Part shown: positions 29,664 through 48,277 of the stretch, piece by piece
Layout: each line of letters opens with the position of its first letter
How positions within the stretch are numbered: position 1 is the first letter of the stretch
Assembly: GCF_029227855.1 (NCBI RefSeq)
Contig: NZ_CP074356.1
Reading direction: 5' to 3' (one strand)
From: Escherichia coli
GTDB lineage: Bacteria > Pseudomonadota > Gammaproteobacteria > Enterobacterales > Enterobacteriaceae
Length of the DNA: 64,000 bases
Translations under genes and position numbers: made by a program
Notes under the pieces: generated by a model
The model's database searches: none
What the model was told of the DNA's origin: nothing
What the model saw: only the letters and a program-made list of their open reading frames with translations

Positions 29664-30125
29664 ATGCAGTTCACTTTTAATGAAGGCCACATTCAACTGC
29701 CGTCTCAATGGCAGGATCAGTCAATGCAGGTCCTGGTGTCCACAGATAACAGTGGCATCAACCTGGTCATTACCCGCGAAGCCGTTCCACAGGGAACCCT
29801 GACACCAGAGCTGTACCAGGAAACGCTGGCGCTGTACCAGGGCAAACTTGATGGGTACACCGAACATGCCTGCCGGGAAATCACTCTGGCAGAGGCCCCG
29901 GCCTGGCTGCTGGATTATTCCTGGAACGGTCCGGAAGATGAGGGGAATCAGGGGCGGATTAGCCAGATAGCCGTATTCCAGCGGCGTGGAGATACGCTGC
30001 TGACCTTCACTTTCAGCACCTCCTTATCCCTGAAGAACAGTCAAAAGACGATGCTGCTGGAGGTGATAAAGAGCTTCACCCCGTTGCCACCGGAGAATGA
30101 CATCCAAAAGGACCAGCCGCGCTGA
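29664..30125 (+). CDS. DUF1795/Eag-family T6SS effector chaperone (EagR-like)
   Basis: 153-aa ORF placed between vgrG and a prePAAR-Rhs gene, the canonical position of Eag chaperones; assignment from context and overall similarity, no HMM run. Confidence 0.7.
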   Translation: MQFTFNEGHIQLPSQWQDQSMQVLVSTDNSGINLVITREAVPQGTLTPELYQETLALYQGKLDGYTEHACREITLAEAPAWLLDYSWNGPEDEGNQGRISQIAVFQRRGDTLLTFTFSTSLSLKNSQKTMLLEVIKSFTPLPPENDIQKDQPR

Positions 30126-30144
30126 CATAAACGAGGGATAACAC

Positions 30145-33100: not shown

Positions 33101-34974
33101 CGCCGGAAGGCAAAACGCAGTATGCGTATGACAAATCCGGCAGGCTGACGGGTATCTTCAGCCCGGACGGCACATCACAGCGCACCGGCTATGACGAACG
33201 CGGGCGGGTGAATGTCACCACTCAGGGCCGACGGGCCATTGAATACCACTACCCCGATGAACACACCGTCATCCGCTGTATCCTGCCACCGGAAGATGAA
33301 CGCGACAGACACCCCGGTGAATCCCTGCTGAAAACCACGTACCGCTACAACGCAGCCGGAGAACTGGCAGAGGTCATCCTGCCGGAGGATGAGACGCTGA
33401 CGTTCAGCCGTGATGAGGCAGGACGTGAAGTGCTCCGGCACAGTAACCGGGGTTTTGCCTGTGAGCAGGGCTGGAATGCAGCCGGTCAGCTTACCAGCCA
33501 GCGCGCCGGACTTTTCCCGGCAGAAGCCACATGGGGCGGGCTGCTCCCCTCACTGGTACGGGAGTACCGTTACGACAGCGCGGGCAATGTGTCGGCTGTC
33601 ACCAGCCGGGAAGATTACGGACGGGAAACTCGCCGGGAGTACCGGCTGGACCGGAACGGCCAGGTCACGGCGGTGACAGCCTCAGGCACCGGGCTGGGCT
33701 ATGGCGAAGGCGATGAGTCCTATGGCTATGACAGTTGTGGCTACCTGAAGGCGCAGTCTGCGGGCAGGCACCGGATAAGTGAAGAGACTGAGCGGTATGC
33801 CGGAGGCCACCGGCTGAAACAGGCCGGAAACACGCAGTATGACTATGACGCCGCAGGCCGGATGGTCAGCCGCACCAGACACCGTAACGGCTATCGCCCG
33901 GAAACAGAGCGGTTCCGGTGGGACAGCCGGGACCAGCTGACCGGGTATTGCAGCGCACAGGGTGAACAGTGGGAATACCGCCACGACGCCAGCGGCAGAC
34001 GGACGGAAAAACGCTGCGACCGGAAGAAAATCCGCTTCACGTACCTGTGGGACGGCGACAGTATTGCGGAAATCCGGGAATACCGCGATGATAAACTGTA
34101 CAGCGTAAGGCACCTGGTGTTTAACGGCTTTGAGCTGATAAGCCAGCAGTTTAGCCGGGTACGGCAGCCGCACCCGTCCGTGGCCCCGCAGTGGGTGACG
34201 CGGACGAATCATGCGGTGAGCGATCTGACGGGCCGTCCGCTGATGCTCTTTAACAGTGAAGGTAAAACCGTCTGGCGACCGGGACAGACCAGCCTGTGGG
34301 GGCTGGCACTCAGCCTGCCCGCGGACACCGGCTACCCGGACCCGCGCGGGGAACTGGACGCGGAAGCCGACCCCGGCCTGCTGTATGCAGGACAGTGGCA
34401 GGATGCGGAATCCGGGCTGTGCTATAACCGGTTCCGGTATTACGAGCCGGAAACAGGGATGTACCTGGTGAGTGATCCGCTGGGGTTGCTGGGGGGTGAG
34501 CAGACTTACCGGTATGTGCCGAATCCGTGTGGGTATGTTGATCCTTTGGGATTAGCAACATGTCCCATAATCAGACAACGGGTGCTGGCTAACCTTGAAG
34601 CCAGTCGGGCAGCAAGGGCTGCATCTAATTTTGGTAAGAAAAATATCTATGATTTTATCAAGGCAACTCAATCTGCTATCCCTGGCACCTCTATCCCAAA
34701 ATCTTTTGAGATTATAACTGCTAATGGTACTTTCTGGGTACACCCAAATGCTACAAAACATATGGCTGAATATTTGACTCGGAACGGTCTCTCACATTCA
34801 ACTTCTGTAGAGAGCCAAATAATGTTAACAAGTTTTCACGAAGCTGTAAGTTTGGCTAGTGCTCAAGGTATAAAGTATGAAGAAATGATGAATGTTGGCG
34901 GCTGGGAACTAGTATTTAGTCAAGCTAAATCTGACTCGGCTTTATCAGTTATTAAACATGCTCTTTATAAATGA
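30145..34974 (+). CDS. prePAAR/PAAR-domain Rhs polymorphic toxin (T6SS effector) with variable C-terminal toxin domain
   Basis: 1609 aa; prePAAR motif AARLGDEIQH near the N-terminus with hydrophobic helices; PAAR-like segment (GDKLECSAAIVEGSPDVFIGGE); many YD/RHS repeats; PxxxxDPxGL core-end motif (NPCGYVDPLGL) followed by about 150 aa of divergent C-terminus. Confidence 0.9.
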   Translation: MSEGPGGPQGATAGGTLAMRMLSQQAMVASQMKRAANDKAIAQMLASKKSGPPAARLGDEIQHKSFLGALAGAVLGAIVTIAEGCLIMAACATGPYALVLVPALMYASYKASDYVEEKQNQLESWINSFCDTDGAINTGSENVNINGKPAARAAVTLPPPPPPGAIPEIPQGEPSWGDIATDLLESAAEKAVPLAKAWGNAVITLTDSNAGFMDRVSAGASLLFPAGPVLMEFATMVGGRGEIKKDVDFPEAGEDTALCDKENKPPRIAQGSSNVFINNQPAARKGDKLECSAAIVEGSPDVFIGGEQVTYLDIQPEFPPWQRMILGGITIASYLLPPAGLLGKLKNLARLGKLGNLLGKSGKLLGAKLGALLGKTDKSLKSIANKVIRWVTDPVDPVTGAYCDERTDFTLGQTLPLSFTRFHSSVLPLHGLTGVGWSDSWSEYAWVREQGNRVDIISQGATLNFAFDGDSDTAVNPYHAQYILRRRDDYLELFDRDALSSRFFYDAFPGMRLRHPVTDDTSDDRLAHSPNDRMYMLGGMSDTASNRITFERDSQYRITGVSHTDGIRLKLTYHASGYLKAIHRTDNGIQTLATYEQDARGRLTEADARLDYHLFYEYDAADRIIRWSDNDQTWSRFTYDEQGRCVNVTGAEGYYNATLDYGDGCTTVTDGKGIHRYYYDPDGNILREAAPDGSTTTYEWDEFHHLLARHSPAGRVEKFEYNAAHGQLSRYTAADGAEWQYRYDERGLLSNITDPAGQTWTQQCDERGLPVSLVSPQGEETRLAYTAQGLLSGIFRQDERRLGIEYDHHNRPETLTDVMGREHHTEYSGHDLPVKMRGPGGQSVRLQWQQHHKLSGLERTGTGAEGFSYDRHGNLLAWTDGNGVVWTMEYGPFDLPVARTDGEGHRWQYRYDKDTLQLTEVINPQGESYLYVLDNCGRVTEEHDWGGVVWRYRYDADGLCTARVNGLEETILYSRDDAGRLAEVITPEGKTQYAYDKSGRLTGIFSPDGTSQRTGYDERGRVNVTTQGRRAIEYHYPDEHTVIRCILPPEDERDRHPGESLLKTTYRYNAAGELAEVILPEDETLTFSRDEAGREVLRHSNRGFACEQGWNAAGQLTSQRAGLFPAEATWGGLLPSLVREYRYDSAGNVSAVTSREDYGRETRREYRLDRNGQVTAVTASGTGLGYGEGDESYGYDSCGYLKAQSAGRHRISEETERYAGGHRLKQAGNTQYDYDAAGRMVSRTRHRNGYRPETERFRWDSRDQLTGYCSAQGEQWEYRHDASGRRTEKRCDRKKIRFTYLWDGDSIAEIREYRDDKLYSVRHLVFNGFELISQQFSRVRQPHPSVAPQWVTRTNHAVSDLTGRPLMLFNSEGKTVWRPGQTSLWGLALSLPADTGYPDPRGELDAEADPGLLYAGQWQDAESGLCYNRFRYYEPETGMYLVSDPLGLLGGEQTYRYVPNPCGYVDPLGLATCPIIRQRVLANLEASRAARAASNFGKKNIYDFIKATQSAIPGTSIPKSFEIITANGTFWVHPNATKHMAEYLTRNGLSHSTSVESQIMLTSFHEAVSLASAQGIKYEEMMNVGGWELVFSQAKSDSALSVIKHALYK

Positions 34975-35504
34975 CGATTATGCTTACATTAGAAAATGAA
35001 ACAAACTACAAAGATGTTGTTGTTAATATAGATGAATTTGTACCTTTTGATATAACTTTTGGAAAGGGGAGCGAACAGTGTTTGTACTGGAGAGGCGGCA
35101 ATGGTAAAAGTTCTTTGGTTGAAGTTGGGTTAAATATGTACAGCGGAGAAGTAAGTAACATCACACTAGCAAATATCGATTCAGGTGAAATTAACATTAC
35201 AGATGAGATGTTAGCCAACAACCTTCCTGAAATACAAGGGTCTGTTATATTTCAGACAAGCGAGTGGCTTAATAAAGACATTTCCGAATACTCAAACAGA
35301 TTTATTGATGATTTTGATTGCAATATCAAGTTAATAATTGGTAGTAATTACATTAAATTATTATTTAAAAAAGCAACAAATCCCATTTGTTATATCATTA
35401 ATAGGAATATAAGATTTGGTTTTTCTTTGAGTAGGGAACTTTCGACATTGGAAATATTAGACCTCAATCAAGAAAAATTAGATATTCTAAAGTTATTTAA
35501 ATAG
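34971..35504 (+). CDS. Putative cognate immunity protein for the Rhs C-terminal toxin
   Basis: 177-aa ORF whose ATG overlaps the rhs stop (ATGA); markedly AT-rich; position typical of rhsI genes. Confidence 0.7.
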   Translation: MTIMLTLENETNYKDVVVNIDEFVPFDITFGKGSEQCLYWRGGNGKSSLVEVGLNMYSGEVSNITLANIDSGEINITDEMLANNLPEIQGSVIFQTSEWLNKDISEYSNRFIDDFDCNIKLIIGSNYIKLLFKKATNPICYIINRNIRFGFSLSRELSTLEILDLNQEKLDILKLFK

Positions 35505-35983
35505 TTTTAGTGTTTGAAACTTACCGAGAGATGATAGCTATGAATGAATACAAAAACATCCATCTTGGAGGAAACAATGGAATGTTAATCCATTAAAAAA
35601 CATACTTCAATATCTTTAGTGAAGAAAGAGTTGTATGAAAGAAATATATCTTATGTGAGCGACATGATGCATGCTAATTATATTATTGGCCGGAAATTTT
35701 ATGATGATAGCAAAAAGGAGGGGTTATTTCTGTAAGAATGGATATACCCGCAGGGTTTGAACCAGACATTTATTTGTTGAAGTCTAAGATCCAAATGGAA
35801 GCATTTATATCCCTCAGATATTATGCGTTGACGGGTTGATAAAGATACTTTTAGAGGGTTAATAAATGGAGAACGTATAATAAATCTCTTAAACAAACTA
35901 TAACCTGTACTAATGAAAAAAATGGGAATAGATAAGTTAATAGCCTATTCTAAAAATGGTAAAGTGGTTTTACTTCCAAAATA

Positions 35984-36427
35984 ATGGAGTTTAGTATGAA
36001 AATCGAAGCTAATTCCCTTACTCATCCCTATGACTACAACGCCTCACTGAACAATTATTTACATTATTTTGAGAATTTCTCTCGTAATGACTGGAATAAA
36101 GATTCATGTGGAGGATATTTTACTTTTAGAGATGATGACAGAGAGTGTGTTTTGTTTTTTGTGAATTATGGTGATAATTTTTCATTGCGCTATGATTGTA
36201 CACAAAGTTCTGATGGAATAGTGTCATGCTGGTATAGTAACCATGAAGATGATAAAATGAATATCATCGTCGATGCTGATACAGAACAATTTATCCCTTT
36301 AGGTTCTTGCTTACCTCCTGATATTACTTTATCAGTAATAAAAGATTTTTTCAAAAATCCTTTAGAGAAATCAAAAAAAGTAAAATGGATGAATGCAGAT
36401 GACATTGACTGGTCATCTGTGTATTAA
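35984..36427 (+). CDS. Hypothetical protein, possible orphan immunity gene
   Basis: 147-aa ORF in AT-rich DNA downstream of the toxin/immunity pair; no recognisable motif. Confidence 0.4.
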   Translation: MEFSMKIEANSLTHPYDYNASLNNYLHYFENFSRNDWNKDSCGGYFTFRDDDRECVLFFVNYGDNFSLRYDCTQSSDGIVSCWYSNHEDDKMNIIVDADTEQFIPLGSCLPPDITLSVIKDFFKNPLEKSKKVKWMNADDIDWSSVY

Positions 36428-37318
36428 AGTTGGATTGGATAATTATCTGTTTCAAAAATCATTAAATTTAGAACCTATCTGTTCAACAGAGCTGCCTTGA
36501 ACAGCAGGTTCTTTTATGATGTCCAGGAGCGAATATGCCTGTGATGTCTGGCACTCAGCATCTGACTGACCTGGACTACTGATCCTACTCACACAGGGAG
36601 CTAGACCTGGAAGCAACCTACTGTAAGCAGTGCAGTAGCAGCCCACCTCACATCAGTCCTTGCAAGGTGTGGGCCTTTGTGATCTTGCTCTGTATTGCTG
36701 AGATCCTCAGGAAGGACTCGAAATTTAATCAGGAAGGCCGTTGCTAAAAATCAAAAAATAAATTCAAGAGCAATTTCTAAAACTTTTGAATCTACTGTAT
36801 CGGATGAGGTTTTCACTCCTTTCCAAAAGGTGAGTTTTCAAGCATTCAAGTTTCTGTTATGACCAAAACTTCACCATTTAACACTAATCCGAGTATTATG
36901 TTACCATGAAGAAAAAAGATATTAGATTTGCAATATCCATTAACTCCAACTCAAGTAAGATAGAATTAATGGAAAAATTAAAAACATAATCCCAGGGCTT
37001 ATTGAAATAACTCCCAGTGCATTAAGAGAAGAAAAAACATGGTAGTTATTGAAGATAATGATCTTTATGACTCTATAAAAGCAGAGGGAGTTGATGGATG
37101 GATGTATTATAAATTCATATTATCCATATTCCCATTAAAGGGAGTAGACACAACATTAGAATATCAACGGAAATTATCTTTTCTTTTCTTAAAGAAATTA
37201 AAAGATGCGGGTCTGTTAGGTGAACTTATATGCGAGGATGATTTTCATGACTGATGACCTCTACATATATCCTCAGTTCGTGGCTGGTATTACATGATCT
37301 GACAGGGAAAGATCGTAG

Positions 37319-37613
37319 CGAAATCAAAAAAGACGTGGATTTCCCGGAAGCCGGTGAAGACACGGCGCTCTGCGACAAGGAGACTAAACCGCCGAGGATA
37401 GCCCAGGGCAGCAGCAACGTTTTTATCAACAATCAGCCTGCCGCACGCCAGGGAGACAAACTGGAGTGCAGTGCGGCGATCGTGGAAGGTTCGCCGGACG
37501 TCTTTATTGGGGGTGAGCAGGTCACCTATCTGGATATCCAGCCGGAGTTCCCGCCGTGGCAGAGAATGATCCTGGGGGGAATAACGATAGCCAGCTATCT
37601 TCTGCCGCCAGCG
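37319..37613 (+). pseudogene. Duplicated fragment of the Rhs PAAR-domain region
   Basis: 295 bp nearly identical to 30867-31161 of the full-length rhs gene; encodes EIKKDVDFPEAGEDTALCDK...ITIASYLLPPA inside ORF 37254..37631; lacks the N-terminus and core. Confidence 0.85.
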
Positions 37614-37750
37614 CAGGGAAAGATCACGTAACGCTGCTTTTTTGTACTAAATAATTCGCACTAAATGTTCAATAATTGAGATATTCCTTATTACCTAAAT
37701 ACAGTTCCACCAAGATTACCTAAACCCAAATGAGGTAAAAGATAGTGGGT

Positions 37751-38112
37751 ATGAATAAAAATGAAATCCATTTCCCTATAGGATATGGTTGGTTGAATGA
37801 AAAAAAATTATTGGCACCAGTGAATTTAGCCAATTAGAACCATGGTTTTATCTAGATGAGAACAGGTGTTTTTTTGCGAATAAAAAATGGCCAAATGTCA
37901 TAGGTGAACAATTATTCGCTTTTGCTAAACGTCAAGATAATGATGAATTGGCTTGTTTCAAAATTAATGAATCTGGAGTCTGTGAGGGTGTTTATTTAAT
38001 TAATGGGTGGACTCCTAACGGGTTTGATATTATACAATTTTACCCTGATTTTTGGGAATGGGTACATTTGGTTATACAAGATGTCTCGGAGTGGATTGAT
38101 AATAAAGGATAA
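37751..38112 (+). pseudogene. Frameshifted small gene (immunity-protein-like) with an A8 tract at the frame switch
   Basis: ATG at 37751 reads 27 codons to a stop; a shifted frame from about 37813 continues for 99 codons to TAA at 38110-38112; the shift coincides with gaaaaaaaatt at 37798-37808. Confidence 0.45.
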
Positions 38113-38141
38113 TTTGAAACAAAAGTAAAAAACCGCCTTCA

Positions 38142-38840
38142 TTGAAGGTAACGTGGAGTGGTGGGCGGAGCAGCCTGCCCGCAGACACAGACTACCCGGA
38201 CCCGCGCGGGGAGCGGGACGCGGAAGCCGACCCCGGCCTGCTGTATGCAGGACAGTGGCAGGATGCGGAATCCGGACTGTGCTATAACCGGTTCCGGTAT
38301 TACGAGCCGGAAACCGGGATGTACCTGGTGAGTGATCCCCTGGGGTTGCTGGGGGGTGAGCAGACTTACCGGTATGTGCCTAATCCTAGTGGGTATGTTG
38401 ATCCTCTGGGATTAGCAACGTGTCCTATACTCAGACAGTGGGCGCTGACTAACCTTGAAGCCAGTCGGGCAGCAAGGGCTGCATCTAATTTTGGTAAGCC
38501 TCTGGTCCAGCGAAATAAAACGATTGGCGATAAAGTAAGGGATATGATTGCCAAAGAGAGGGGAACCACTCTAATTGAACAAAATTATAGAGTGACAGGA
38601 GGATTAAAGCGTATTGACGTTGTTGATGGAGTAACGGGTATAGAATCTAAAGTCGATCGAACAGGGTTAACAACCCGAGTACGGCAAGAGGTAGCGCGGG
38701 ATATTAAGATTTTGAGAAGTGAGCAACTTGATCAAATTGAATGGGTGTTTACAAGAAGTTCAACTACAGGGAAGATTGGGCCAACTAAACCACTTGAAGA
38801 TCTTTTAAATAAACATGGTATACCGATTATTTATCGATAA
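38142..38840 (+). CDS. Orphan Rhs C-terminal fragment: core end (DPxGL) plus alternative C-terminal toxin domain, candidate PD-(D/E)xK nuclease
   Basis: 38171-38498 nearly identical to 34311-34638 of the full rhs; the C-terminal domain diverges after ...AASNFGK; contains RIDVVDG...GIESK; the ORF begins at TTG and has no PAAR or core of its own. Confidence 0.7.
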   Translation: MKVTWSGGRSSLPADTDYPDPRGERDAEADPGLLYAGQWQDAESGLCYNRFRYYEPETGMYLVSDPLGLLGGEQTYRYVPNPSGYVDPLGLATCPILRQWALTNLEASRAARAASNFGKPLVQRNKTIGDKVRDMIAKERGTTLIEQNYRVTGGLKRIDVVDGVTGIESKVDRTGLTTRVRQEVARDIKILRSEQLDQIEWVFTRSSTTGKIGPTKPLEDLLNKHGIPIIYR

Positions 38841-38851
38841 GGAGTGATAGT

Positions 38852-39409
38852 GTGAAACTCAAACCGATTGGTGACTTTTTAAACAAAAATGGGTTTATAA
38901 AAAATGGTAACAATGATTTTTATAAAGTTCATGATAAGTTTGTAAATTGTATAAATTTTCAAAAAAAGAGTACAGGTGATATTTTTTTTATAAACACAGG
39001 TGTTCATCCTGTGTTCGAAAATTTTTGCAATGAACCACCGAAAAAAGAAATAGATTGTTACATCCGTAACCGTGTGTGTGATGGACTAAGTATATCTTTG
39101 CTGCATTCTTTTGAAGGTAGTGAGTTTGTTATCAGTGAGATAAAAAACAAAGCGTTTTGTTTTTTTGAATACTTTGATTCATTGAATAAAATATTCGATG
39201 CTATTCGTGTTGTAGATATTGAAGAGAGAAATATTTGCGATGAGCTAAGTGGTGTAAGCAGCGTAAGATTAGCTTTGATGTGTATGAACTACCAGTATGA
39301 GAAAAAAAAATTTAGCCTTGTTTCTGATTTTGCGAACTATGGTCTTGCTATATCTAGAGGCCCGGTACCGAAAAAAGCATTTAAGGATATGATAAAAATA
39401 ACAGAGTGA
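38852..39409 (+). CDS. Putative immunity protein for the orphan Rhs C-terminal toxin
   Basis: 185-aa AT-rich ORF with GTG start 11 bp after the orphan toxin stop and GGAG upstream. Confidence 0.6.
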   Translation: MKLKPIGDFLNKNGFIKNGNNDFYKVHDKFVNCINFQKKSTGDIFFINTGVHPVFENFCNEPPKKEIDCYIRNRVCDGLSISLLHSFEGSEFVISEIKNKAFCFFEYFDSLNKIFDAIRVVDIEERNICDELSGVSSVRLALMCMNYQYEKKKFSLVSDFANYGLAISRGPVPKKAFKDMIKITE

Positions 39410-39434
39410 TACCTAATCCGGTGTAATACTTGCT

Positions 39435-39646
39435 GCCTGTGTACCGCGAAGATTAACGGCCGGGAGGAAACTATTCTCTACAACCGGGACGCCACAGGCC
39501 GCCTGGCAGAAGTCATCACGCCGGAAGGCAAAACGCAGTATGCGTATGACAAATCCGGCAGGCTGACGGGTATCTTCAGCCCGGACGACACATCACAGCG
39601 CACCGGCTATGAAGAACGCGGGCGGGTGAATGTCACCACTCAGGGC
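39435..39646 (+). pseudogene. Internal Rhs core fragment
   Basis: About 210 bp at roughly 90% identity to 33018-33228 of the full-length rhs; truncated at both ends, abutting the ISAs1 left end. Confidence 0.8.
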
Positions 39647-40936
39647 AGGGAAAGATCATCCAAAGTACACTTTTTGTACTAAATAATTCGCATTTTATGT
39701 TTAAAAATGGAGATATTCCTCATTACCTAAAGCTGTTTTTTATTGCTTATACATGATCAAATACTCCTTACATAATTAAGGAGAACAAAATGGAACTTAA
39801 AAAATTGATGGAACATATTTCTATTATCCCCGATTACAGACAAGCCTGGAAAGTGGAACATAAATTATCGGATATTCTGCTGTTGACTATTTGTGCCGTT
39901 ATTTCGGGTGCAGAAGGCTGGGAAGATATAGAGGATTTTGGGGAAACACATCTCGATTTTTTGAAGCAATATGGTGATTTTGATAATGGTATTCCTGTTC
40001 ACGATACCATCGCCAGAGTTATATCCTGTATCAGTCCTTCAAAATTTCACGAGTGTTTTATTAACTGGATGCGAGATTGCCATACTTCAGATGATAAAGA
40101 CGTCATCGCAATTGATGGAAAAACACTCCGGCATTCTTATGACAAGAGTCGCCGCAAGGGAGCGATTCATGTCATTAGTGCGTTCTCAACAATGCACAGT
40201 CTGGTCATCGGACAGATCAGGACGGATGAGAAATCCAATGAAATTACAGCTATCCCTGAACTTCTTAACATGCTGGATATTAAAGGAAAAATCATCACAA
40301 CTGATGCGATGGGTTGCCAGAAAGATATTGCAGAGAAGATACAAAAACAGGGCGGTGATTATTTATTCGCTGTAAAAGGAAACCAGGGGCGGCTAAATAA
40401 AGCCTTCGAGGAAAAATTTCCGCTGAAAGAATTAAATAATCCAGAGCATGACAGTTACGCCATTAGTGAAAAGAGTCACGGCAGAGAAGAAATCCGTCTT
40501 CATATTGTTTGCGATGTCCCTGATGAACTTATTGATTTCACGTTTGAATGGAAAGGACTGAAGAAATTATGCGTGGCAGTCTCTTTTCGGTCAATAATAG
40601 CAGAACAAAAGAAAGAGCCAGAAATGACGGTCAGATATTATATCAGTTCTGCTGATTTAACCGCAGAGAAGTTCGCCACAGCAATCCGAAACCACTGGCG
40701 CGTGGAGAATAAGCTGCACTGGCGTCTGGACGTGGTAATGAATGAAGACGACTGCAAAATAAGAAGAGGAAACGCCGCAGAATTATTTTCAGGGATACGG
40801 CACATCGCTATTAATATTTTAACGAATGATAAGGTATTCAAGGCAGGGTTAAGACGTAAGATGCGAAAAGCAGCCATGGACAGAAACTATCTCGCGTCAG
40901 TCCTTGCGGGGAGCGGGCTTTCGTAATCTTGCCCTG
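39646..40936 (+). mobile_element. ISAs1-family insertion sequence (H-repeat element), about 1.29 kb
   Basis: Imperfect terminal inverted repeats CAGGGAAAGATCA (39646-39658) and TAATCTTGCCCTG (40924-40936); single transposase ORF; inserted in rhs-derived sequence. Confidence 0.75.
39790..40926 (+). CDS. ISAs1-family transposase (H-repeat-associated protein, YhhI/YdcC-like)
   Basis: 378-aa [55 protein letters not shown]...; the stop codon lies inside the right inverted repeat. Confidence 0.88.
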
Positions 40937-41123
40937 CGTTAACCGCCCCTCCTTGACACCACGCTTTTGTCTACATTCTACACAAACGGCAACTTTTATA
41001 ACCAGTGTAAAAATAACGTGCCGCAATAGTCATACCTATTAATGGTAAAAAGCTGTCACAATTCATAAAAAACCTTAATATACGCCACCCTAAACATAAC
41101 CAGCGTTAATGTAAGGTTTTTGT

Positions 41124-43361
41124 GTGGACTGGCTTCTTGATGTTTTTGCTACCTGGCTCTACGGCTTAAAAGTAATCGCGATAACGTTAGCGGTCATCAT
41201 GTTCATCAGCGGGCTGGACGATTTTTTTATTGATGTCGTCTACTGGGTACGCCGCATTAAACGCAAGTTGAGTGTTTATCGCCGCTACCCGCGAATGAGT
41301 TACCGCGAACTGTATAAACCAGATGAAAAACCGTTAGCGATTATGGTTCCGGCGTGGAATGAAACGGGCGTCATCGGCAATATGGCCGAGCTGGCGGCGA
41401 CCACGCTCGACTATGAAAACTATCATATCTTTGTTGGCACCTACCCCAACGACCCCGATACACAGCGTGATGTTGACGAAGTGTGCGCTCGCTTCCCGAA
41501 CGTGCATAAGGTAGTCTGCGCGCGTCCTGGCCCCACCAGCAAAGCCGACTGCCTGAACAACGTGCTGGACGCCATCACCCAGTTTGAGCGTAGCGCCAAT
41601 TTCGCTTTTGCTGGTTTTATTCTGCATGACGCCGAAGACGTAATTTCACCGATGGAATTGCGTCTGTTCAACTATCTGGTCGAGCGTAAAGATCTGATTC
41701 AGATCCCGGTGTATCCGTTCGAACGCGAATGGACGCACTTCACCAGCATGACTTACATTGATGAGTTTTCAGAACTGCATGGCAAAGATGTTCCGGTGCG
41801 TGAAGCCCTCGCCGGACAAGTGCCCAGCGCAGGCGTCGGTACCTGTTTCAGCCGCCGCGCCGTGACCGCACTGTTAGCTGACGGTGACGGTATTGCTTTC
41901 GACGTGCAGAGTCTTACTGAAGATTACGACATTGGTTTCCGCCTGAAAGAAAAAGGTATGACGGAAATTTTTGTCCGTTTTCCGGTGGTGGACGAAGCCA
42001 AAGAACGCGAGCAGCGTAAATTTTTACAGCACGCGCGGACGTCAAACATGATCTGCGTGCGCGAATATTTCCCTGATACCTTTTCGACTGCGGTTCGACA
42101 AAAATCTCGCTGGATCATCGGCATTGTTTTCCAGGGCTTTAAAACCCACAAATGGACCTCCAGCCTGACGCTGAACTACTTTCTCTGGCGCGACCGCAAA
42201 GGGGCAATCAGTAACTTTGTCAGCTTTCTCGCGATGCTGGTGATGATCCAGCTTCTGCTGTTACTGGCGTATGAAAGTTTGTGGCCCGATGCCTGGCATT
42301 TCCTTTCTATTTTCAGCGGCAGCGCATGGTTAATGACCCTGCTGTGGCTAAACTTTGGTTTGATGGTTAACCGCATCGTGCAGCGGGTGATTTTTGTCAC
42401 TGGCTACTACGGTCTGACGCAGGGGCTGCTATCTGTCCTGCGTCTTTTCTGGGGCAACCTGATTAACTTCATGGCCAACTGGCGCGCGTTAAAACAGGTA
42501 CTTCAACACGGCGATCCACGTCGTGTCGCGTGGGATAAAACAACGCATGACTTCCCCAGCGTGACTGGCGATACCCGCTCGTTGCGCCCGTTAGGCCAAA
42601 TTCTGCTGGAAAATCAGGTCATCACTGAAGAACAACTCGATACAGCACTGCGTAATCGCGTCGAAGGTCTACGCCTGGGCGGTTCAATGCTGATGCAGGG
42701 GCTGATTAGCGCCGAACAGCTGGCACAGGCGCTGGCAGAGCAAAACGGCGTGGCGTGGGAATCCATCGACGCCTGGCAGATCCCGTCCTCGCTGATTGCC
42801 GAAATGCCGGCCTCCGTGGCGCTGCATTATGCAGTGCTGCCGCTGCGTCTGGAAAATGATGAGTTAATTGTCGGCAGTGAAGATGGTATTGACCCGGTTT
42901 CGCTGGCGGCCCTGACGCGTAAAGTCGGACGCAAAGTGCGTTACGTCATTGTTCTGCGGGGACAAATTGTCACGGGGTTACGCCACTGGTATGCGCGCCG
43001 ACGCGGTCACGATCCGCGGGCAATGTTGTACAATGCGGTTCAGCATCAGTGGCTCACGGAACAGCAGGCCGGTGAAATCTGGCGGCAATATGTGCCGCAT
43101 CAGTTCCTGTTCGCCGAAATACTGACCACGCTCGGTCATATTAATCGTTCAGCAATTAACGTGTTGTTATTGCGCCATGAACGCAGTTCTCTGCCGCTCG
43201 GCAAGTTTTTGGTCACCGAAGGCGTTATCAGCCAGGAAACGTTGGATCGCGTCCTGACAATTCAACGCGAATTACAAGTTTCGATGCAATCACTATTACT
43301 CAAAGCAGGTTTAAATACAGAACAGGTTGCGCAACTGGAGTCCGAAAATGAAGGAGAATAA
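41124..43361 (+). CDS. nfrB: NfrB, phage N4 adsorption protein B (family-2 glycosyltransferase with C-terminal c-di-GMP-binding domain)
   Basis: 745-aa product MDWLLDVFATWLYGLKVIAITLAVIMF...; GTG start. Confidence 0.93.
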   Translation: MDWLLDVFATWLYGLKVIAITLAVIMFISGLDDFFIDVVYWVRRIKRKLSVYRRYPRMSYRELYKPDEKPLAIMVPAWNETGVIGNMAELAATTLDYENYHIFVGTYPNDPDTQRDVDEVCARFPNVHKVVCARPGPTSKADCLNNVLDAITQFERSANFAFAGFILHDAEDVISPMELRLFNYLVERKDLIQIPVYPFEREWTHFTSMTYIDEFSELHGKDVPVREALAGQVPSAGVGTCFSRRAVTALLADGDGIAFDVQSLTEDYDIGFRLKEKGMTEIFVRFPVVDEAKEREQRKFLQHARTSNMICVREYFPDTFSTAVRQKSRWIIGIVFQGFKTHKWTSSLTLNYFLWRDRKGAISNFVSFLAMLVMIQLLLLLAYESLWPDAWHFLSIFSGSAWLMTLLWLNFGLMVNRIVQRVIFVTGYYGLTQGLLSVLRLFWGNLINFMANWRALKQVLQHGDPRRVAWDKTTHDFPSVTGDTRSLRPLGQILLENQVITEEQLDTALRNRVEGLRLGGSMLMQGLISAEQLAQALAEQNGVAWESIDAWQIPSSLIAEMPASVALHYAVLPLRLENDELIVGSEDGIDPVSLAALTRKVGRKVRYVIVLRGQIVTGLRHWYARRRGHDPRAMLYNAVQHQWLTEQQAGEIWRQYVPHQFLFAEILTTLGHINRSAINVLLLRHERSSLPLGKFLVTEGVISQETLDRVLTIQRELQVSMQSLLLKAGLNTEQVAQLESENEGE

Positions 43362-46320
43362 CCTTAATCGCGTCATCGGATGGTCTGGTTTACTGCTGAC
43401 GTCTTTATTGAGTACCAGCGCACTCGCAGACAATATCGGCACCAGCGCAGAAGAGCTGGGGCTGAGCGATTATCGCCATTTTGTTATTTATCCCCGTCTC
43501 GACAAGGCGCTGAAGGCACAGAAAAATAACGACGAAGCAACCGCCATCCGCGAATTTGAATATATACACCAGCAGGTGCCGGATAATATTCCGCTAACTT
43601 TATACCTTGCGGAAGCCTATCGCCATTTTGGTCATGATGACCGGGCGCGGCTGTTGCTTGAGGATCAACTGAAACGTCACCCAGGAGATGCCCGACTTGA
43701 GCGCAGTCTGGCGGCTATTCCAGTTGAAGTGAAAAGCGTTACGACTGTTGAAGAACTGCTTGCCCAGCAAAAAGCGTGCGATGCTGCGCCGACCCTGCGT
43801 TGTCGCAGTGAAGTTGGGCAGAATGCCCTGCGGCTGGCACAATTACCTGTCGCCAGAGCGCAACTGAACGATGCGACGTTTGCTGCATCGCCGGAAGGAA
43901 AAACGCTGCGAACCGATCTGCTGCAACGGGCAATCTACCTGAAGCAATGGTCCCAGGCAGATACGCTATACAATGAAGCACGCCAGCAGAACACATTAAG
44001 CGCGGCAGAACGCCGCCAGTGGTTTGATGTGCTTCTTGCCGGGCAGCTGGACGATCGGATCCTGGCGCTGCAATCACAGGGGATCTTCACCGATCCGCAG
44101 TCATATATTACTTACGCGACCGCGCTGGCTTATCGTGACGAAAAAGCACGCCTCCAGCGTTATCTCATTGAAAATACGCCGCTATTTACCACGGACGCAC
44201 AAGAGAAAAGTTGGCTCTATCTGTTATCTAAATACAGCGGCAACCCCGTTCAGGCGTTGGCGAATTATACGGTACAGTTTGCCGATAACCGCCAGTATGT
44301 TGTTGGCGCGACGCTACCGGTGCTGTTAAAAGAAGGTCAGTACGACGCAGCGCAAAAACTGCTCGCCACCCTCCCCGCCAATGAAATGCTTGAGGAGCGT
44401 TATACCGTTAGCGTGGCGACCCGTAACAAGGCTGAAGCTCTGCGTCTGGCACGATTGCTGTATCAGCAAGAACCGGCAAATCTTACCCGCCTGGATCAAC
44501 TGACCTGGCAACTGATGCAGAACGAGCAGTCACGCGAAGTTGCCGATTTATTGCTGCAACGCTATCCTTTCCAGGGCGATGCGCGTGTCAGCCAGACTTT
44601 AATGGCGCGACTGGCGTCTCTGCTGGAAAGTCATCCTTACCTGGCAACTCCGGCGAAGGTGGCGATTTTATCGAAACCCTTACCGCTGGCGGAGCAACGT
44701 CAGTGGCAAAGTCAGTTGCCGGGTATTGCAGATAATTGCCCGGCAATAGTTCGCTTGCTGGGCGATATGTCGCCTTCCTACGATGCCACCGCCTGGAACC
44801 GTCTGGCAAAGTGTTATCGGGACACGCTACCCGGTGTGGCGTTGTATGCATGGCTTCAGGCCGAACAACGACAACCGAACGCCTGGCAACATCGTGCGGT
44901 AGCCTATCAGGCGTATCAGGTTGAGGACTACGCCACCGCACTGGCGGCCTGGCAGAAAATCAGTCTTCACGACATGAGCAATGAGGATCTGCTTGCTGCT
45001 GCCAATACCGCCCAGGCGGCAGGAAATGGTGCGGCTCGCGATCGCTGGCTTCAGCAGGCAGAACAACGTGGGCTGGGAAACAATGCCCTCTACTGGTGGC
45101 TGCATGCGCAACGTTACATTCCTGGTCAGCCGGAACTCGCACTGAACGATCTCACGCGCTCAATCAATATTGAGCCTTCTGCCAACGCTTACGTTGCGCG
45201 GGCGACAATTTATCGCCAACGTCATAATGTCCCGGCGGCGGTGAGTGATTTGCGCGCCGCGCTGGAACTGGAACCGAATAATAGCAACACCCAGGCAGCG
45301 CTCGGTTACGCCTTGTGGGATAGCGGTGATATCGCACAGTCGCGGGAAATGCTCGAACAGGCGCATAAAGGGCTACCGGACGATCCGGCACTTATCCGAC
45401 AACTGGCCTACGTGAACCAGCGTCTGGATGACATGCCTGCGACGCAGCACTACGCCCGGCTGGTGATTGATGACATTGATAATCAGGCGCTGATAACCCC
45501 ACTGACCCCAGAGCAAAATCAGCAACGCTTCAATTTCCGCCGTCTGCATGAGGAGGTCGGTCGCCGCTGGACGTTCAGTTTCGATTCTTCTATCGGCTTG
45601 CGTTCCGGCGCAATGAGTACCGCTAACAATAATGTCGGCGGCGCAGCGCCAGGGAAAAGCTATCGTAGCTATGGGCAACTGGAAGCCGAGTACCGCATCG
45701 GACGCAATATGCTGCTGGAAGGCGACCTGCTCTCAGTTTATAGCCGCGTCTTTGCCGATACCGGAGAAAACGGGGTGATGATGCCGGTGAAAAATCCGAT
45801 GTCCGGCACCGGTCTGCGCTGGAAGCCGCTGCGCGATCAGATCTTTTTCCTCGCCGTCGAACAGCAGTTGCCGCTGAACGGGCAAAATGGCGCATCCGAT
45901 ACCATGCTGCGCGCCAGCGCCTCATTCTTTAATGGCGGCAAATACAGCGACGAATGGCACCCGAACGGTTCAGGCTGGTTTGCCCAAAACCTGTACCTCG
46001 ATGCGGCGCAATATGTCCGCCAGGATATTCAGGCGTGGACGGCAGATTATCGCGTAAGCTGGCATCAGAAGGTGGCGAACGGACAGACTATTGAGCCTTA
46101 CGCTCACGTTCAGGACAACGGTTATCGTGATAAAGGCACTCAGGGCGCGCAGCTTGGCGGTGTCGGGGTCCGCTGGAATATCTGGACCGGCGAGACGCAC
46201 TACGACGCCTGGCCGCACAAAGTCAGTCTCGGCGTCGAATATCAACATACCTTTAAGGCGATTAATCAACGTAACGGAGAGCGCAACAACGCGTTTCTCA
46301 CCATTGGAGTGCACTGGTAA
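43348..46320 (+). CDS. nfrA: NfrA, outer-membrane phage N4 receptor (TPR plus beta-barrel)
   Basis: 990-aa product MKENNLNRVIGWSGLLLTSLLSTSALA...; overlaps the nfrB 3' end by 14 bp. Confidence 0.93.
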   Translation: MKENNLNRVIGWSGLLLTSLLSTSALADNIGTSAEELGLSDYRHFVIYPRLDKALKAQKNNDEATAIREFEYIHQQVPDNIPLTLYLAEAYRHFGHDDRARLLLEDQLKRHPGDARLERSLAAIPVEVKSVTTVEELLAQQKACDAAPTLRCRSEVGQNALRLAQLPVARAQLNDATFAASPEGKTLRTDLLQRAIYLKQWSQADTLYNEARQQNTLSAAERRQWFDVLLAGQLDDRILALQSQGIFTDPQSYITYATALAYRDEKARLQRYLIENTPLFTTDAQEKSWLYLLSKYSGNPVQALANYTVQFADNRQYVVGATLPVLLKEGQYDAAQKLLATLPANEMLEERYTVSVATRNKAEALRLARLLYQQEPANLTRLDQLTWQLMQNEQSREVADLLLQRYPFQGDARVSQTLMARLASLLESHPYLATPAKVAILSKPLPLAEQRQWQSQLPGIADNCPAIVRLLGDMSPSYDATAWNRLAKCYRDTLPGVALYAWLQAEQRQPNAWQHRAVAYQAYQVEDYATALAAWQKISLHDMSNEDLLAAANTAQAAGNGAARDRWLQQAEQRGLGNNALYWWLHAQRYIPGQPELALNDLTRSINIEPSANAYVARATIYRQRHNVPAAVSDLRAALELEPNNSNTQAALGYALWDSGDIAQSREMLEQAHKGLPDDPALIRQLAYVNQRLDDMPATQHYARLVIDDIDNQALITPLTPEQNQQRFNFRRLHEEVGRRWTFSFDSSIGLRSGAMSTANNNVGGAAPGKSYRSYGQLEAEYRIGRNMLLEGDLLSVYSRVFADTGENGVMMPVKNPMSGTGLRWKPLRDQIFFLAVEQQLPLNGQNGASDTMLRASASFFNGGKYSDEWHPNGSGWFAQNLYLDAAQYVRQDIQAWTADYRVSWHQKVANGQTIEPYAHVQDNGYRDKGTQGAQLGGVGVRWNIWTGETHYDAWPHKVSLGVEYQHTFKAINQRNGERNNAFLTIGVHW

Positions 46321-47211
46321 ATGCGTAAGTTCATTTTCGTATTGCTGACACTGCTTTTGGTCAGCCCTTTTTCCTTTGCGATGAAAGGTATTATCTGGCA
46401 ACCACAAAACCGTGATAGTCAGGTTACCGATACCCAGTGGCAGGGGCTGATGAGTCAGTTACGTTTGCAAGGCTTCGATACCCTGGTTTTGCAATGGACC
46501 CGTTACGGCGATGCATTCACCCAGCCAGAACAGCGCGCGTTATTGTTTAAGCGTGCAGCAGCTGCGCAACAGACTGGCCTGAAGCTGATTGTCGGGCTGA
46601 ATGCCGATCCGGAATTTTTTATGCACCAGAAACAGTCATCCGCGGCGCTGGAAAGCTATCTTAATCGCCTGCTGGCTGCCGATCTCCAGCAAGCCAGATT
46701 ATGGAGCGCCGCGCCTGGCGTAACGCCGGATGGCTGGTACATCAGCGCGGAAATTGACGACCTGAACTGGCGCAGCGAAGCCGCCCGTCAACCGTTGCTG
46801 ACATGGTTAAACAACGCGCAGCGGTTGATTAGCGATGTTTCAGCAAAACCGGTTTATATCAGTAGTTTTTTCGCCGGAAACATGTCGCCAGATGGCTATC
46901 GCCAACTGCTGGAACAAGTTAAAACAACCGGCGTTAATGTCTGGGTACAGGATGGCAGCGGCGTGAATAAACTTACCGCTGAACAGCGTGAACGTTATCT
47001 ACAGGCCAGCGCCGATTGCCAAAGTTCCGCCCCTGCCAGCGGCATTGTTTATGAACTGTTTGTCGCCGGCAAAGGCAAAACCTTTACAGCGAAACCGAAA
47101 CCGAATGCAGAGATCGCCTCGCTGTTAGCGAAACGTTCCTCTTGCGGTAAAGACACGCTCTATTTCTCTCTGCGCTATTTGCCCGTCGCACACGGCATTC
47201 TCGAGTATTAA
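46321..47211 (+). CDS. ybcH: YbcH, uncharacterized secreted protein co-transcribed with nfrA
   Basis: 296-aa ORF with signal peptide MRKFIFVLLTLLLVSPFSFA; starts at the base after the nfrA stop. Confidence 0.88.
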   Translation: MRKFIFVLLTLLLVSPFSFAMKGIIWQPQNRDSQVTDTQWQGLMSQLRLQGFDTLVLQWTRYGDAFTQPEQRALLFKRAAAAQQTGLKLIVGLNADPEFFMHQKQSSAALESYLNRLLAADLQQARLWSAAPGVTPDGWYISAEIDDLNWRSEAARQPLLTWLNNAQRLISDVSAKPVYISSFFAGNMSPDGYRQLLEQVKTTGVNVWVQDGSGVNKLTAEQRERYLQASADCQSSAPASGIVYELFVAGKGKTFTAKPKPNAEIASLLAKRSSCGKDTLYFSLRYLPVAHGILEY

Positions 47212-47393: not shown

Positions 47394-48155
47394 ATGCAAT
47401 TGAGCAGCAGTGAACCTTGCGTGGTGATCCTGACCGAAAAAGAGGTAGAGGTAAGCGTTAATAACCATGCCACGTTTACCCTTCCGAAAAATTACCTGGC
47501 CGCCTTCGCGTGCAACAATAACGTCATTGAACTCTCAACGTTAAATCACGTATTAATCACCCACATCAACCGCAACATCATCAACGATTATCTGTTGTTT
47601 TTAAATAAGAACTTAACCTGCGTAAAGCCCTGGTCGCGGCTGGCTACCCCGGTTATCGCTTGTCATAGCCGTACACCGGAAGTGTTCCGGCTAGCCGCCA
47701 ACCACAGCAAGCAGCAACCCAGCAAACCCTGCGAAGCGGAGTTGACGCGCGCATTGCTTTTTACCGTATTGTCTAACTTTCTTGAGCAATCGCGGTTTAT
47801 TGCCCTACTGATGTATATCTTACGCAGCAGCGTCCGCGACAGCGTCTGCCGCATTATTCAAAGCGATATTCAGCATTACTGGAATCTGCGAATTGTCGCC
47901 AGTTCGCTATGTTTAAGCCCCAGCCTGCTCAAAAAGAAATTAAAAAACGAAAATACCAGCTATAGCCAGATTGTCACAGAGTGTCGTATGCGTTACGCCG
48001 TACAGATGTTATTGATGGATAACAAAAATATCACTCAGGTAGCGCAATTATGTGGCTATAGCAGCACGTCGTACTTTATCTCTGTTTTTAAGGCGTTTTA
48101 CGGCCTGACACCGTTGAATTATCTCGCCAAACAGCGACAAAAAGTGATGTGGTGA
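47394..48155 (+). CDS. envY: AraC-family transcriptional regulator EnvY
   Basis: 253-aa ORF MQLSSSEPCVVILTEKEVE... with C-terminal AraC-type helix-turn-helix. Confidence 0.9.
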   Translation: MQLSSSEPCVVILTEKEVEVSVNNHATFTLPKNYLAAFACNNNVIELSTLNHVLITHINRNIINDYLLFLNKNLTCVKPWSRLATPVIACHSRTPEVFRLAANHSKQQPSKPCEAELTRALLFTVLSNFLEQSRFIALLMYILRSSVRDSVCRIIQSDIQHYWNLRIVASSLCLSPSLLKKKLKNENTSYSQIVTECRMRYAVQMLLMDNKNITQVAQLCGYSSTSYFISVFKAFYGLTPLNYLAKQRQKVMW

Positions 48156-48200
48156 AGGGCAAAGCGGAAACGGATAAGACGGGGATAAATGAAGAAGAAA

Positions 48201-48277
48201 TGGCGCGCCCTGCAGGATTCGAACCTGCGGCCCACGACTTAGAAGGTCGTTGCTCTATCCAACTGAGCTAAGGGCGC
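48201..48277 (-). tRNA. argU: tRNA-Arg (anticodon UCU), argU
   Basis: Reverse complement reads GCGCCCTTAGCTCAGTTGGATAGAGCAACGACCTTCTAAGTCGTGGGCCGCAGGTTCGAATCCTGCAGGGCGCGCCA; cloverleaf with TCT anticodon and CCA end. Confidence 0.95.

What the first reader, a model, noticed from the sequence alone, without database searches (positions are those of the whole stretch)
41124..47211. nfrB-nfrA-ybcH with overlapping genes
nfrB uses a GTG start and overlaps nfrA by 14 bp; ybcH begins at the base immediately after the nfrA stop, implying translational coupling of all three. NfrB is a family-2 glycosyltransferase with a C-terminal c-di-GMP-binding domain, so the trio is best viewed as an envelope polysaccharide synthesis/export module that also serves as the phage N4 receptor. 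The ISAs1 element upstream may alter its expression in this strain.
Basis: partly seen in the sequence, partly recalled or inferred. Interest (0 to 1): 0.35.

Follow-up and report, generated by a model that had tools for sequence, protein, structure and literature searches.

The report
Known phage N4 receptor-sugar operon

Summary
nfrB runs 41124-43361 with a GTG start, nfrA runs 43348-46320 with a 14-nt overlap, and ybcH runs 46321-47211 with its ATG directly after the nfrA TAA. The window is E. coli. NfrB is 100% identical to K-12 NfrB, NfrA 98.6% and YbcH 97%. Domain searches confirm a GT2 domain plus an MshEN c-di-GMP domain in NfrB, TPR plus NfrA_C in NfrA, and DUF4434 in YbcH.

The overlap, the operon, c-di-GMP binding (Kd about 1 uM), the exopolysaccharide module and the N4 receptor role were all published in 2021 (PMC8669469, PMC8669472).

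The ISAs1 element (39642-40936) is the ISEc1-type end of a roughly 14-kb vgrG-Rhs island between cusS and nfrB. It adjoins nfrB in 2471 of 5426 complete E. coli genomes. The 141 bp upstream of nfrB are identical to K-12 and hold promoter-like hexamers conserved in four species. An effect on distal or read-through transcription cannot be excluded.

Two additions:
- YbcH models as a glycoside-hydrolase-type TIM barrel, with invariant glutamates at the ends of strands 4 and 7.
- NfrB carries a conserved second MshEN-like motif pair at 665-714.

Verdict: already known, low interest.

The parts
39642..40936 (+). ISAs1-family (ISEc1-like) insertion sequence. The intact 378-aa transposase CDS is 39790-40926. 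Short terminal inverted repeat: CAGGGCAGG at the left end, CTTGCCCTG at the right end.
   Evidence: Pfam DDE_Tnp_1_assoc plus DDE_Tnp_1 and NCBIfam transpos_ISAs1 at 417 bits. The right end was located by where other IS copies and IS-free strains stop matching. Inverted repeat.
40937..40982 (+). 46-bp remnant of Rhs-island flank between the IS end and the DNA shared with K-12. Relative to most IS-bearing strains, 71 bp next to the IS end are deleted here.
   Evidence: Alignment with STEC17-183, FCI48 and RM13514. The deletion junction is found in 114 of 5426 complete genomes.
40983..41123 (+). nfrB upstream region, identical to K-12. It contains the candidate core promoter: -35-like CTGTCA at 41053-41058 and -10-like TAATAT at 41076-41081, with a 17-nt spacer.
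   Evidence: The 141 bp are invariant in K-12, RM13514, FCI48, STEC17-183 and the window. GCTGTCA and TTAATATA are invariant in E. coli, E. albertii, E. fergusonii and C. amalonaticus while the surrounding sequence diverges. The hexamer match is 8 of 12. No transcription start site data are available.
41124..43361 (+). nfrB: inner-membrane family-2 glycosyltransferase (synthase) with a C-terminal MshEN c-di-GMP receptor (motif pair at residues 489-540) and a second MshEN-like motif pair at residues 665-714. GTG start.
   Evidence: The GTG start is conserved in four species.
43348..46320 (+). nfrA: outer-membrane component with a signal peptide, TPR repeats and the NfrA_C barrel domain. Overlaps nfrB by 14 nt. 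GGAG Shine-Dalgarno sequence at 43337-43340.
   Evidence: Published AlphaFold model of a 16-stranded barrel resembling PgaA and BcsC (PMC8669472).
46321..47211 (+). ybcH: DUF4434 protein with an N-terminal signal-like segment. Predicted (beta/alpha)8 barrel of the glycoside-hydrolase type. The ATG abuts the nfrA stop codon.

Best explanation
The region is the E. coli nfrBA-ybcH operon, a synthase-dependent exopolysaccharide system.

Shown in the literature for the identical or near-identical K-12 proteins:
- NfrB sits in the inner membrane.
[quoted passage not shown] That c-di-GMP is made locally by DgcJ, with DgcQ as a backup.
- N4 infection needs the GT2 catalytic residues, the MshEN residues, NfrA and WecB.

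Inferred in the literature: the GT2 domain polymerises a ManNAc-based glycan from the UDP-ManNAc that WecB supplies, and NfrA (periplasmic TPR plus outer-membrane barrel) exports it. Phage N4 and related phages use the surface glycan (NGR) as their primary receptor.

Inferred here:
- The three cistrons are read from one mRNA that starts in the conserved 141-bp region upstream of nfrB.
- The stop/start overlap (ATG...TAA, 14 nt) and the abutment (TAAATG) allow ribosomes to pass from one cistron to the next.
- A conserved GTG start limits NfrB output.
- YbcH is most likely the periplasmic glycan-processing hydrolase of the system, rather than only a scaffold.
- The ISAs1 element is a common Rhs-island terminus that leaves the proximal control region intact.
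For: Identity:
- 100% DNA match to an E. coli chromosome, with nfrB/nfrA/ybcH annotation.
- NfrB 745/745, NfrA 976/990 and YbcH 287/296 identical to K-12.
- Pfam and NCBIfam equivalog hits.
- MshE and PilF c-di-GMP domains are the only solved relatives of residues 487-625.

Function, from the literature:
- Operon with the 14-nt overlap, c-di-GMP Kd of 1.0 uM, and loss of N4 plating with D169A, D267A, W330A and G491L. YbcH is dispensable for plating but partly needed for the motility phenotype (PMC8669469).
- NGR model and requirement for WecB alone among the wec genes (PMC8669472).
- Moderate ybcH phenotype in droplet RB-TnSeq.

Coupling:
- Shine-Dalgarno spacings read from the sequence.
- The junctions stay within -14 to 0 nt and -1 to 0 nt in three other species.

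Promoter region:
- 141 bp invariant across strains with and without the island or the IS.
- Hexamers conserved across genera.

YbcH:
- AlphaFold2 model with pLDDT 93.
- Invariant E144 lies at the end of strand 4 and invariant E245 at the end of strand 7.
Against: - The papers read here give the chemical structure of the glycan only as a postulate. ManNAc is inferred from WecB dependence.
- Neither paper reports a test of translational coupling. nfrA has a good Shine-Dalgarno sequence of its own and could initiate independently.
- No transcription start site is known. The published FliA dependence was measured with a -1499..0 fusion. No sigma-28 consensus above background lies in the retained 141 bp.
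- Hydrolase activity of YbcH is inferred from fold and conserved residues only. Foldseek TM-scores to solved structures are modest at 0.45-0.5, and no sequence-level relative has a solved structure.
Confidence: 0.93

Rival explanations
1. The upstream ISAs1 element and Rhs island materially change nfr operon transcription in this strain. Two routes are possible: read-through from the co-directional transposase or island genes, or separation of nfrB from signals that lie in cusS in K-12-type strains.
For: - The transposase CDS is on the same strand and ends 197 bp before nfrB. No terminator-like site is predicted on the + strand between 40300 and 42109.
- The only published reporter, which is FliA- and temperature-responsive, carried -1499..0, which is all of K-12 cusS. 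Only the last 141 bp are retained here.
- A perfect sigma-28 -10 octamer, GCCGATAA, lies in cusS 616 bp upstream of nfrB in K-12. Here it is 14.6 kb away, at 26519-26526.
- This window also has a lineage-restricted 71-bp deletion abutting the IS, seen in 114 of 5426 genomes.
Against: - The 141 bp next to nfrB are identical in every configuration examined and hold the only cross-genus conserved promoter-like hexamers.
- IS-nfrB adjacency is present in about 45% of complete E. coli genomes, so it is an old, tolerated state.
- In K-12, cusS is equally co-directional, with a 149-bp gap.
- The GCCGATAA octamer is within chance expectation.
- No sigma-70-like outward promoter was called at the IS end.
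Confidence: 0.2
2. The older model: the NfrA protein itself is the N4 receptor, NfrB is an inner-membrane entry factor, and no glycan is involved.
For: NfrA was reported to interact with the N4 tail sheath protein and may be the terminal receptor (cited in PMC8669472). NCBIfam still names NfrA 'phage receptor'.
Against: GT2 active-site and c-di-GMP-site mutants of NfrB block N4. WecB epimerase activity alone among the wec genes is required. The NfrA architecture, TPR plus barrel, is that of glycan export porins. A dual role, with the glycan as primary receptor and NfrA as terminal receptor, remains possible.
Confidence: 0.05
3. YbcH is a non-catalytic periplasmic scaffold, as suggested in the 2021 paper, not an enzyme.
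For: PMC8669469 proposes a scaffold role. Deleting ybcH does not abolish N4 plating and only partly relieves the motility defect. No biochemical data exist.
Against: The fold is a glycoside-hydrolase-type barrel. E144, D146, D147, Q210, E245 and R285 are invariant in 34 homologues that go down to 42% identity, and the two glutamates sit at the canonical strand-4 and strand-7 ends. Other synthase-dependent systems also carry a non-essential periplasmic hydrolase (background knowledge: BcsZ, PgaB C-terminal domain, PslG, PelA).
Confidence: 0.35
4. The overlap and abutment are only compact gene packing. Each cistron initiates independently, without translational coupling.
For: nfrA has a canonical GGAG 7 nt upstream. 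In E. albertii one base change turns the overlap into TAAATG without apparent harm.
Against: ybcH has only a distant GGAG (11 nt) and no spacer at all. Junction distances stay between -14 and 0 nt in four species. The authors of PMC8669469 placed their tag so as to avoid polar effects on nfrA initiation.
Confidence: 0.3

Closest known systems
NfrBA-YbcH system of E. coli K-12 (Junkermeier & Hengge 2021, PMC8669469; Sellner et al. 2021, PMC8669472)
   Same: Same three genes in the same order, with the same GTG start, the same 14-nt overlap and the same TAAATG junction. NfrB is 100% identical, NfrA 98.6% and YbcH 97%. The 141-bp upstream region is identical.
   Different: The upstream neighbour is a roughly 14-kb vgrG-Rhs island ending in an ISAs1 element, instead of cusS directly. 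Downstream, envY abuts tRNA-Arg(UCU) with no ompT and no DLP12 prophage.
Synthase-dependent exopolysaccharide systems: PgaABCD (PNAG), Bcs (cellulose), Alg and Pel
   Different: The c-di-GMP receptor is an MshEN domain fused to the synthase, not PilZ (BcsA, Alg44), the PgaC/PgaD interface or PelD. No BcsB- or PgaD-like co-polymerase gene is in the operon. The substrate is inferred to be UDP-ManNAc.
MshEN c-di-GMP-binding domains of MshE, PilB and PilF ATPases (PDB 5HTL, 8PDK, 6F8L)
   Same: A tandem pair of 24-residue motifs, xLGxxL(V/L)xxGxIxxxxLxxxLxxQ, at NfrB 489-540. Sequence hits to 5htl_A and to PilF and PilB chains.
   Different: The domain is attached to a glycosyltransferase, not to a secretion ATPase. 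A second motif pair lies at 665-714, whose first half is degenerate with A in place of the conserved G.
ISEc1-type ISAs1-family elements associated with E. coli Rhs loci (for example yhhI and ydcC of K-12)
   Same: ISAs1-family transposase. The IS end is 100% identical over 40 bp to the yhhI and ydcC copies. It sits at the distal end of an Rhs locus, with orphan Rhs and PAAR fragments upstream.
   Different: This copy abuts nfrB, and 71 bp of its right flank are deleted.

Membership tests
NfrB (NCBIfam NF008411, c-di-GMP-activated glycosyltransferase) | Full-length match above the curated equivalog cut-off | tested here: met
   1332.7 bits against a cut-off of 1170, covering residues 7-728. 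745/745 identical to K-12 NfrB.
NfrB (NCBIfam NF008411, c-di-GMP-activated glycosyltransferase) | GT2 catalytic signatures DxD, TED and QxxRW | tested here: met
   D169 in HDAED, T265-E266-D267, and Q326-K-S-R-W330, read from the alignment. Pfam GT2 hits.
NfrB (NCBIfam NF008411, c-di-GMP-activated glycosyltransferase) | MshEN domain with two 24-residue c-di-GMP motifs | tested here: met
   PF05157 at E 3.8e-14. NF053729 at 66 bits, residues 489-540. L490, G491, L505, L509, L518, G519 and L537 are present.
NfrB (NCBIfam NF008411, c-di-GMP-activated glycosyltransferase) | Binds c-di-GMP and is activated by it | not testable with these tools
   Shown for the identical K-12 protein: Kd 1.0 uM, and G491L blocks N4 (PMC8669469, PMC8669472).
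Synthase-dependent exopolysaccharide secretion system | Outer-membrane beta-barrel exporter with periplasmic TPR repeats, encoded next to the synthase | tested here: met
   NfrA has NfrA_C at E 1e-67 plus several TPR families and the NF007302 equivalog at 1884 bits. The barrel fold itself comes from the published AlphaFold model and was not re-modelled here.
Synthase-dependent exopolysaccharide secretion system | Periplasmic polymer-processing enzyme (hydrolase, lyase or deacetylase) | tested here: inconclusive
   YbcH has a glycoside-hydrolase-type TIM-barrel fold with invariant E144 and E245 at the ends of strands 4 and 7. Activity is untested.
Synthase-dependent exopolysaccharide secretion system | A secreted polysaccharide product is demonstrated | not testable with these tools
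   The glycan (NGR) is inferred genetically. The papers read here do not report its structure.
Clan GH-A-like glycoside hydrolases (candidate family for YbcH/DUF4434) | (beta/alpha)8 barrel with the acid/base residue at the end of strand 4 and the nucleophile at the end of strand 7 | tested here: inconclusive
   The model has 8 strand/helix units. E144 ends strand 138-145 and E245 ends strand 241-245, and both are invariant. No residue-level superposition on a characterised enzyme was possible, and there is no sequence hit to a solved structure.
ISAs1 family insertion sequence | DDE transposase matching the family model | tested here: met
   NF033564 at 416.8 bits against a cut-off of 70. PF13808 plus PF01609. 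Intact 378 aa.
ISAs1 family insertion sequence | Terminal inverted repeats and target-site duplication | tested here: inconclusive
   A 9-bp imperfect inverted repeat: CAGGGCAGG at the left end and the reverse complement CAGGGCAAG at the right end. No flanking direct repeat was identifiable, because the right flank carries a 71-bp deletion.
Translationally coupled polycistron | Stop and start codons overlapping or abutting | tested here: met
   14-nt overlap and TAAATG. Conserved within 0 to 14 nt in three other species.
Translationally coupled polycistron | Downstream translation depends on upstream translation | not testable with these tools
   Requires reporter or nonsense-mutation experiments.

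The most novel reading that the evidence does not exclude
YbcH (DUF4434) is an active periplasmic glycoside hydrolase of a family not yet characterised. It uses E144 and E245 in a clan GH-A-like 4/7 arrangement to trim or release the NfrB-made ManNAc glycan. This would make Nfr a complete synthase-dependent system with its own hydrolase. In addition, NfrB carries a second, conserved MshEN-like site (665-714) that could bind a second c-di-GMP or mediate the DgcJ contact. Neither point appears in the two 2021 papers as far as I could read them.
Probability: 0.45. Interest if true: 0.3.

Novelty: already known. Interest (0 to 1): 0.1.

Why it matters
The locus matters for predicting the host range of phage N4 and of the Vequintavirinae and phi92-like phages, and as an example of local c-di-GMP signalling, but all of this is published. 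For this window the useful points are three. The operon is intact and encodes the experimentally characterised NfrB sequence, so the strain should be able to make the NGR receptor if DgcJ and WecB are present. The neighbouring IS is a population-wide Rhs-island terminus, not a fresh insertion. The only published promoter reporter included 1.5 kb of K-12 sequence, of which just 141 bp exist at this position in island-bearing strains, so the regulation seen in K-12 (FliA, temperature) has not been shown to apply to about half of E. coli.

Tried and rejected
1. A hairpin that sequesters the Shine-Dalgarno sequence and start codon of nfrB (41062-41129; MFE -16.8 kcal/mol, z -1.9, 8 of 200 shuffles as good) was considered as a possible RNA thermometer, given the published difference in expression between 37 and 28 degrees C. 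I rejected it. Its 5' arm coincides with the conserved -10-like TTAATATA and the spacer, so it is probably not transcribed. The pairing is lost in E. fergusonii and C. amalonaticus without compensating changes, and weakened in E. albertii.

2. I searched for a sigma-28 (FliA) promoter upstream of nfrB. The best match in 40800-41140 is 10 of 16, a level reached 840 times in the window. No hit with 2 or fewer mismatches to TAAA-N15-GCCGATAA lies on the sense strand between 31302 and nfrB. The published 'class 3' status therefore has no sequence explanation here.

3. Sequence searches of YbcH against solved structures, with the single sequence and with a profile, found nothing meaningful.

4. BLASTP self-comparison of the two NfrB motif regions gave no alignment because the segments are too short. 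The HMM test succeeded instead.

5. An 80-bp junction query could not count the 71-bp deletion variant, because split hits were joined. A 56-bp query centred on the junction solved this.
Full report
**Observation**

- nfrB runs from GTG at 41124 to TAA at 43359-43361 (745 aa).
- nfrA runs from ATG at 43348 to TAA at 46318-46320 (990 aa).
- ybcH runs from ATG at 46321 to 47211 (296 aa).

The nfrB/nfrA overlap is 14 nt (43348-43361). The ybcH ATG is the base after the nfrA TAA. The ribosome-binding sequences are AAGG 7 nt before the nfrB GTG, GGAG 7 nt before the nfrA ATG, and GGAG 11 nt before the ybcH ATG.

The 8-kb stretch is 100% identical to the chromosome of E. coli JNEC-KY178. It matches 5425 of 5426 complete E. 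coli genomes. RefSeq annotates the same boundaries.

**Identity and domains**

NfrB hits Pfam Glyco_trans_2_3, Glyco_tranf_2_3 and MshEN. NfrA hits NfrA_C and several TPR families. YbcH hits DUF4434. All three exceed the NCBIfam equivalog cut-offs.

NfrB is 745/745 identical to K-12 NfrB, NfrA 976/990 and YbcH 287/296. The residues mutated in the literature are therefore all present: D169, D267 and W330 for catalysis, and L490, G491, L505, L509, L518, G519 and L537 for c-di-GMP binding.

The only solved relatives by sequence are the c-di-GMP-binding N-domains of MshE, PilB and PilF for NfrB 487-625, and generic TPR proteins for NfrA. YbcH has none.

**What is already published**

Junkermeier & Hengge (mBio 2021, PMC8669469) describe the nfrBA-ybcH operon, state the 14-nt overlap, and show c-di-GMP binding by NfrB 414-745 (Kd 1.0 uM). 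They show that N4 plating requires the GT2 and MshEN residues, that DgcJ gives local activation, and that expression depends on FlhDC/FliA and temperature. YbcH has only a partial role.

Sellner et al. (mBio 2021, PMC8669472) propose the NGR glycan, show that WecB alone among the wec genes is required, and model NfrA as a 16-stranded barrel with TPRs resembling PgaA and BcsC.

**Translational coupling**

This is an inference from geometry. In the parts of the papers I read, I found no report of a direct test. I checked whether the geometry is conserved.
- Citrobacter amalonaticus keeps the 14-nt overlap and has TAATG at nfrA/ybcH.
- E. fergusonii has an 11-nt overlap and TAATG.
- E. albertii has TAAATG at both junctions.
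- GGAG stays in place throughout.

The GTG start of nfrB is also conserved in all four species. This is consistent with selection for tight junctions and a weak NfrB start. It does not prove coupling.

**The IS element**

The transposase (39790-40926) is an intact ISAs1-family enzyme. Comparison with other strains puts the element at about 39642-40936, with a 9-bp imperfect terminal inverted repeat.

It is the last component of a roughly 14-kb island lying between cusS and nfrB (26974-40982). The island carries vgrG, a DcrB-like gene, an Rhs core protein, orphan Rhs and PAAR fragments, and a DUF4304 gene. K-12 lacks the whole island and has cusS 149 bp upstream of nfrB. The same IS end occurs in the K-12 ISEc1 copies yhhI and ydcC and beside rhsB.

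A junction query shows IS-nfrB adjacency in 2471 of 5426 complete genomes, so this is not a strain-specific event.

What is lineage-restricted is a 71-bp deletion immediately next to the IS right end, found in 114 of 5426 genomes.

The 141 bp preceding nfrB (40983-41123) are identical in four configurations: K-12, a cusS-nfrB strain (RM13514), an island strain without the IS (FCI48), and an island+IS strain without the deletion (STEC17-183). Within those 141 bp, GCTGTCA (41052-41058) and TTAATATA (41075-41082) are invariant across four species while the flanks diverge. This gives a CTGTCA-N17-TAATAT candidate core promoter. The IS end lies 116 bp upstream of it.

**What remains open on regulation**

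- No terminator-like site separates the transposase from nfrB, so read-through is possible. The same is true of cusS in K-12.
- The published reporter spanned -1499 to 0, which is all of K-12 cusS. The FliA- and temperature-responsive element has therefore not been localised to the 141 bp retained here.
- I found no sigma-28 consensus above background in the retained region.
- The only perfect GCCGATAA in the K-12 fusion interval lies within cusS, 616 bp upstream of nfrB. In this window it is 14.6 kb away, at 26519-26526. One such octamer is within chance expectation, so this is a lead only.

I give it about 0.2.

**YbcH**

The 2021 paper calls it a putative scaffold. A 34-sequence alignment, going down to 42% identity, has invariant Q58, W59, E144, D146, D147, Q210, G212, E245, R285 and Y286.

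Foldseek scores are weaker and include non-GH barrels.

E144 ends predicted strand 4 and E245 ends strand 7, which is the clan GH-A arrangement. I infer that YbcH is the periplasmic hydrolase of the system. Its non-essential phenotype fits the accessory hydrolases of other synthase-dependent systems (background knowledge). This is fold-level inference only.

**Second MshEN-like site in NfrB**

The last 115 residues alone pass NCBIfam NF053729 (c-di-GMP motif, MshE-related) at 46.5 bits against a cut-off of 38, covering residues 665-714. Across 33 homologues, down to 28% identity, the pattern L...G...LG..LV....I....L...L..Q is conserved there.

Its first half-motif has A where the canonical G stands. 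The second half, LPLGKFLVTEGVISQETLDRVLTIQ, is canonical. The two papers mutated only the 489-540 site.

**Verdict**

Interest is low. The small additions are the population context of the IS, the gap in promoter mapping, the hydrolase-like YbcH and the second MshEN-like motif pair.

Noticed in passing
[not shown]
   Followed up: partly
window 43116-43265 (NfrB residues 665-714): A second tandem pair of MshEN-like 24-residue c-di-GMP motifs near the NfrB C-terminus. It passes NCBIfam NF053729 on its own (46.5 bits against 38) and is conserved in 33 homologues. It is not among the residues mutated in the two 2021 papers.
   Followed up: partly
window 26974-40982: A roughly 14-kb vgrG / DcrB-like / Rhs-core / orphan Rhs-PAAR / DUF4304 / ISAs1 island between cusS and nfrB, absent from K-12. 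Its left junction lies inside the last codons of cusS, so CusS has a different C-terminal tail here (482 aa against 480 aa).
   Followed up: partly
window 40936/40937: A 71-bp deletion directly abutting the right end of the ISAs1 element, relative to most IS-bearing strains. The junction is present in only 114 of 5426 complete E. coli genomes, which makes it a lineage marker.
   Followed up: yes
window 26519-26526 (in cusS); K-12 L002 11795-11802: A perfect sigma-28 -10 octamer, GCCGATAA, inside cusS and co-directional with nfrB. It lies 616 bp upstream of nfrB in K-12, inside the published -1499..0 reporter, but 14.6 kb away here. It is within chance expectation.
   Followed up: partly
window 42115-42141 (-) and 47060-47086 (-): Sigma-28-like motifs antisense within nfrB and ybcH. 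TAAAGCCC-N11-GCCGATGA has 1 mismatch to TAAA-N15-GCCGATAA. TAAAGGTT-N11-GGCGACAA has 2 mismatches. Both are also present in K-12. They may be intragenic FliA sites.
   Followed up: no
window 47394-48277: envY is followed directly by tRNA-Arg(UCU) (48201-48277, minus strand), then fimZ and the sfm fimbrial genes. The DLP12 prophage, appY and ompT, which lie between them in K-12, are absent.
   Followed up: partly
proteins P0126-P0128 (E. coli): Database proteins that combine Rhs or VgrG Pfam domains with the NfrB C-terminal MshEN region. In some E. coli, deletions across the Rhs-IS-nfrB junction appear to have fused or truncated nfrB.
   Followed up: no
L008 1308-3542 (E. fergusonii contig): nfrB is called as two ORFs (192 aa and 536 aa) in this E. 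fergusonii assembly, which suggests a frameshift or pseudogene there. nfrA and ybcH are intact.
   Followed up: no
window 11267-12159: Two tandem hokE toxin genes with degenerate partner ORFs. An IS200C transposase lies between ybdG and pheP (16443-16901).
   Followed up: no
K-12 nfrB-cusS spacer (PMC5493296 table): A genomic SELEX study lists a minor-sigma holoenzyme binding peak in the nfrB-cusS spacer of K-12 (position 592452, intensity 3.2), in the section on heat-shock sigma promoters. It may relate to the higher nfrB expression at 37 degrees C.
   Followed up: no
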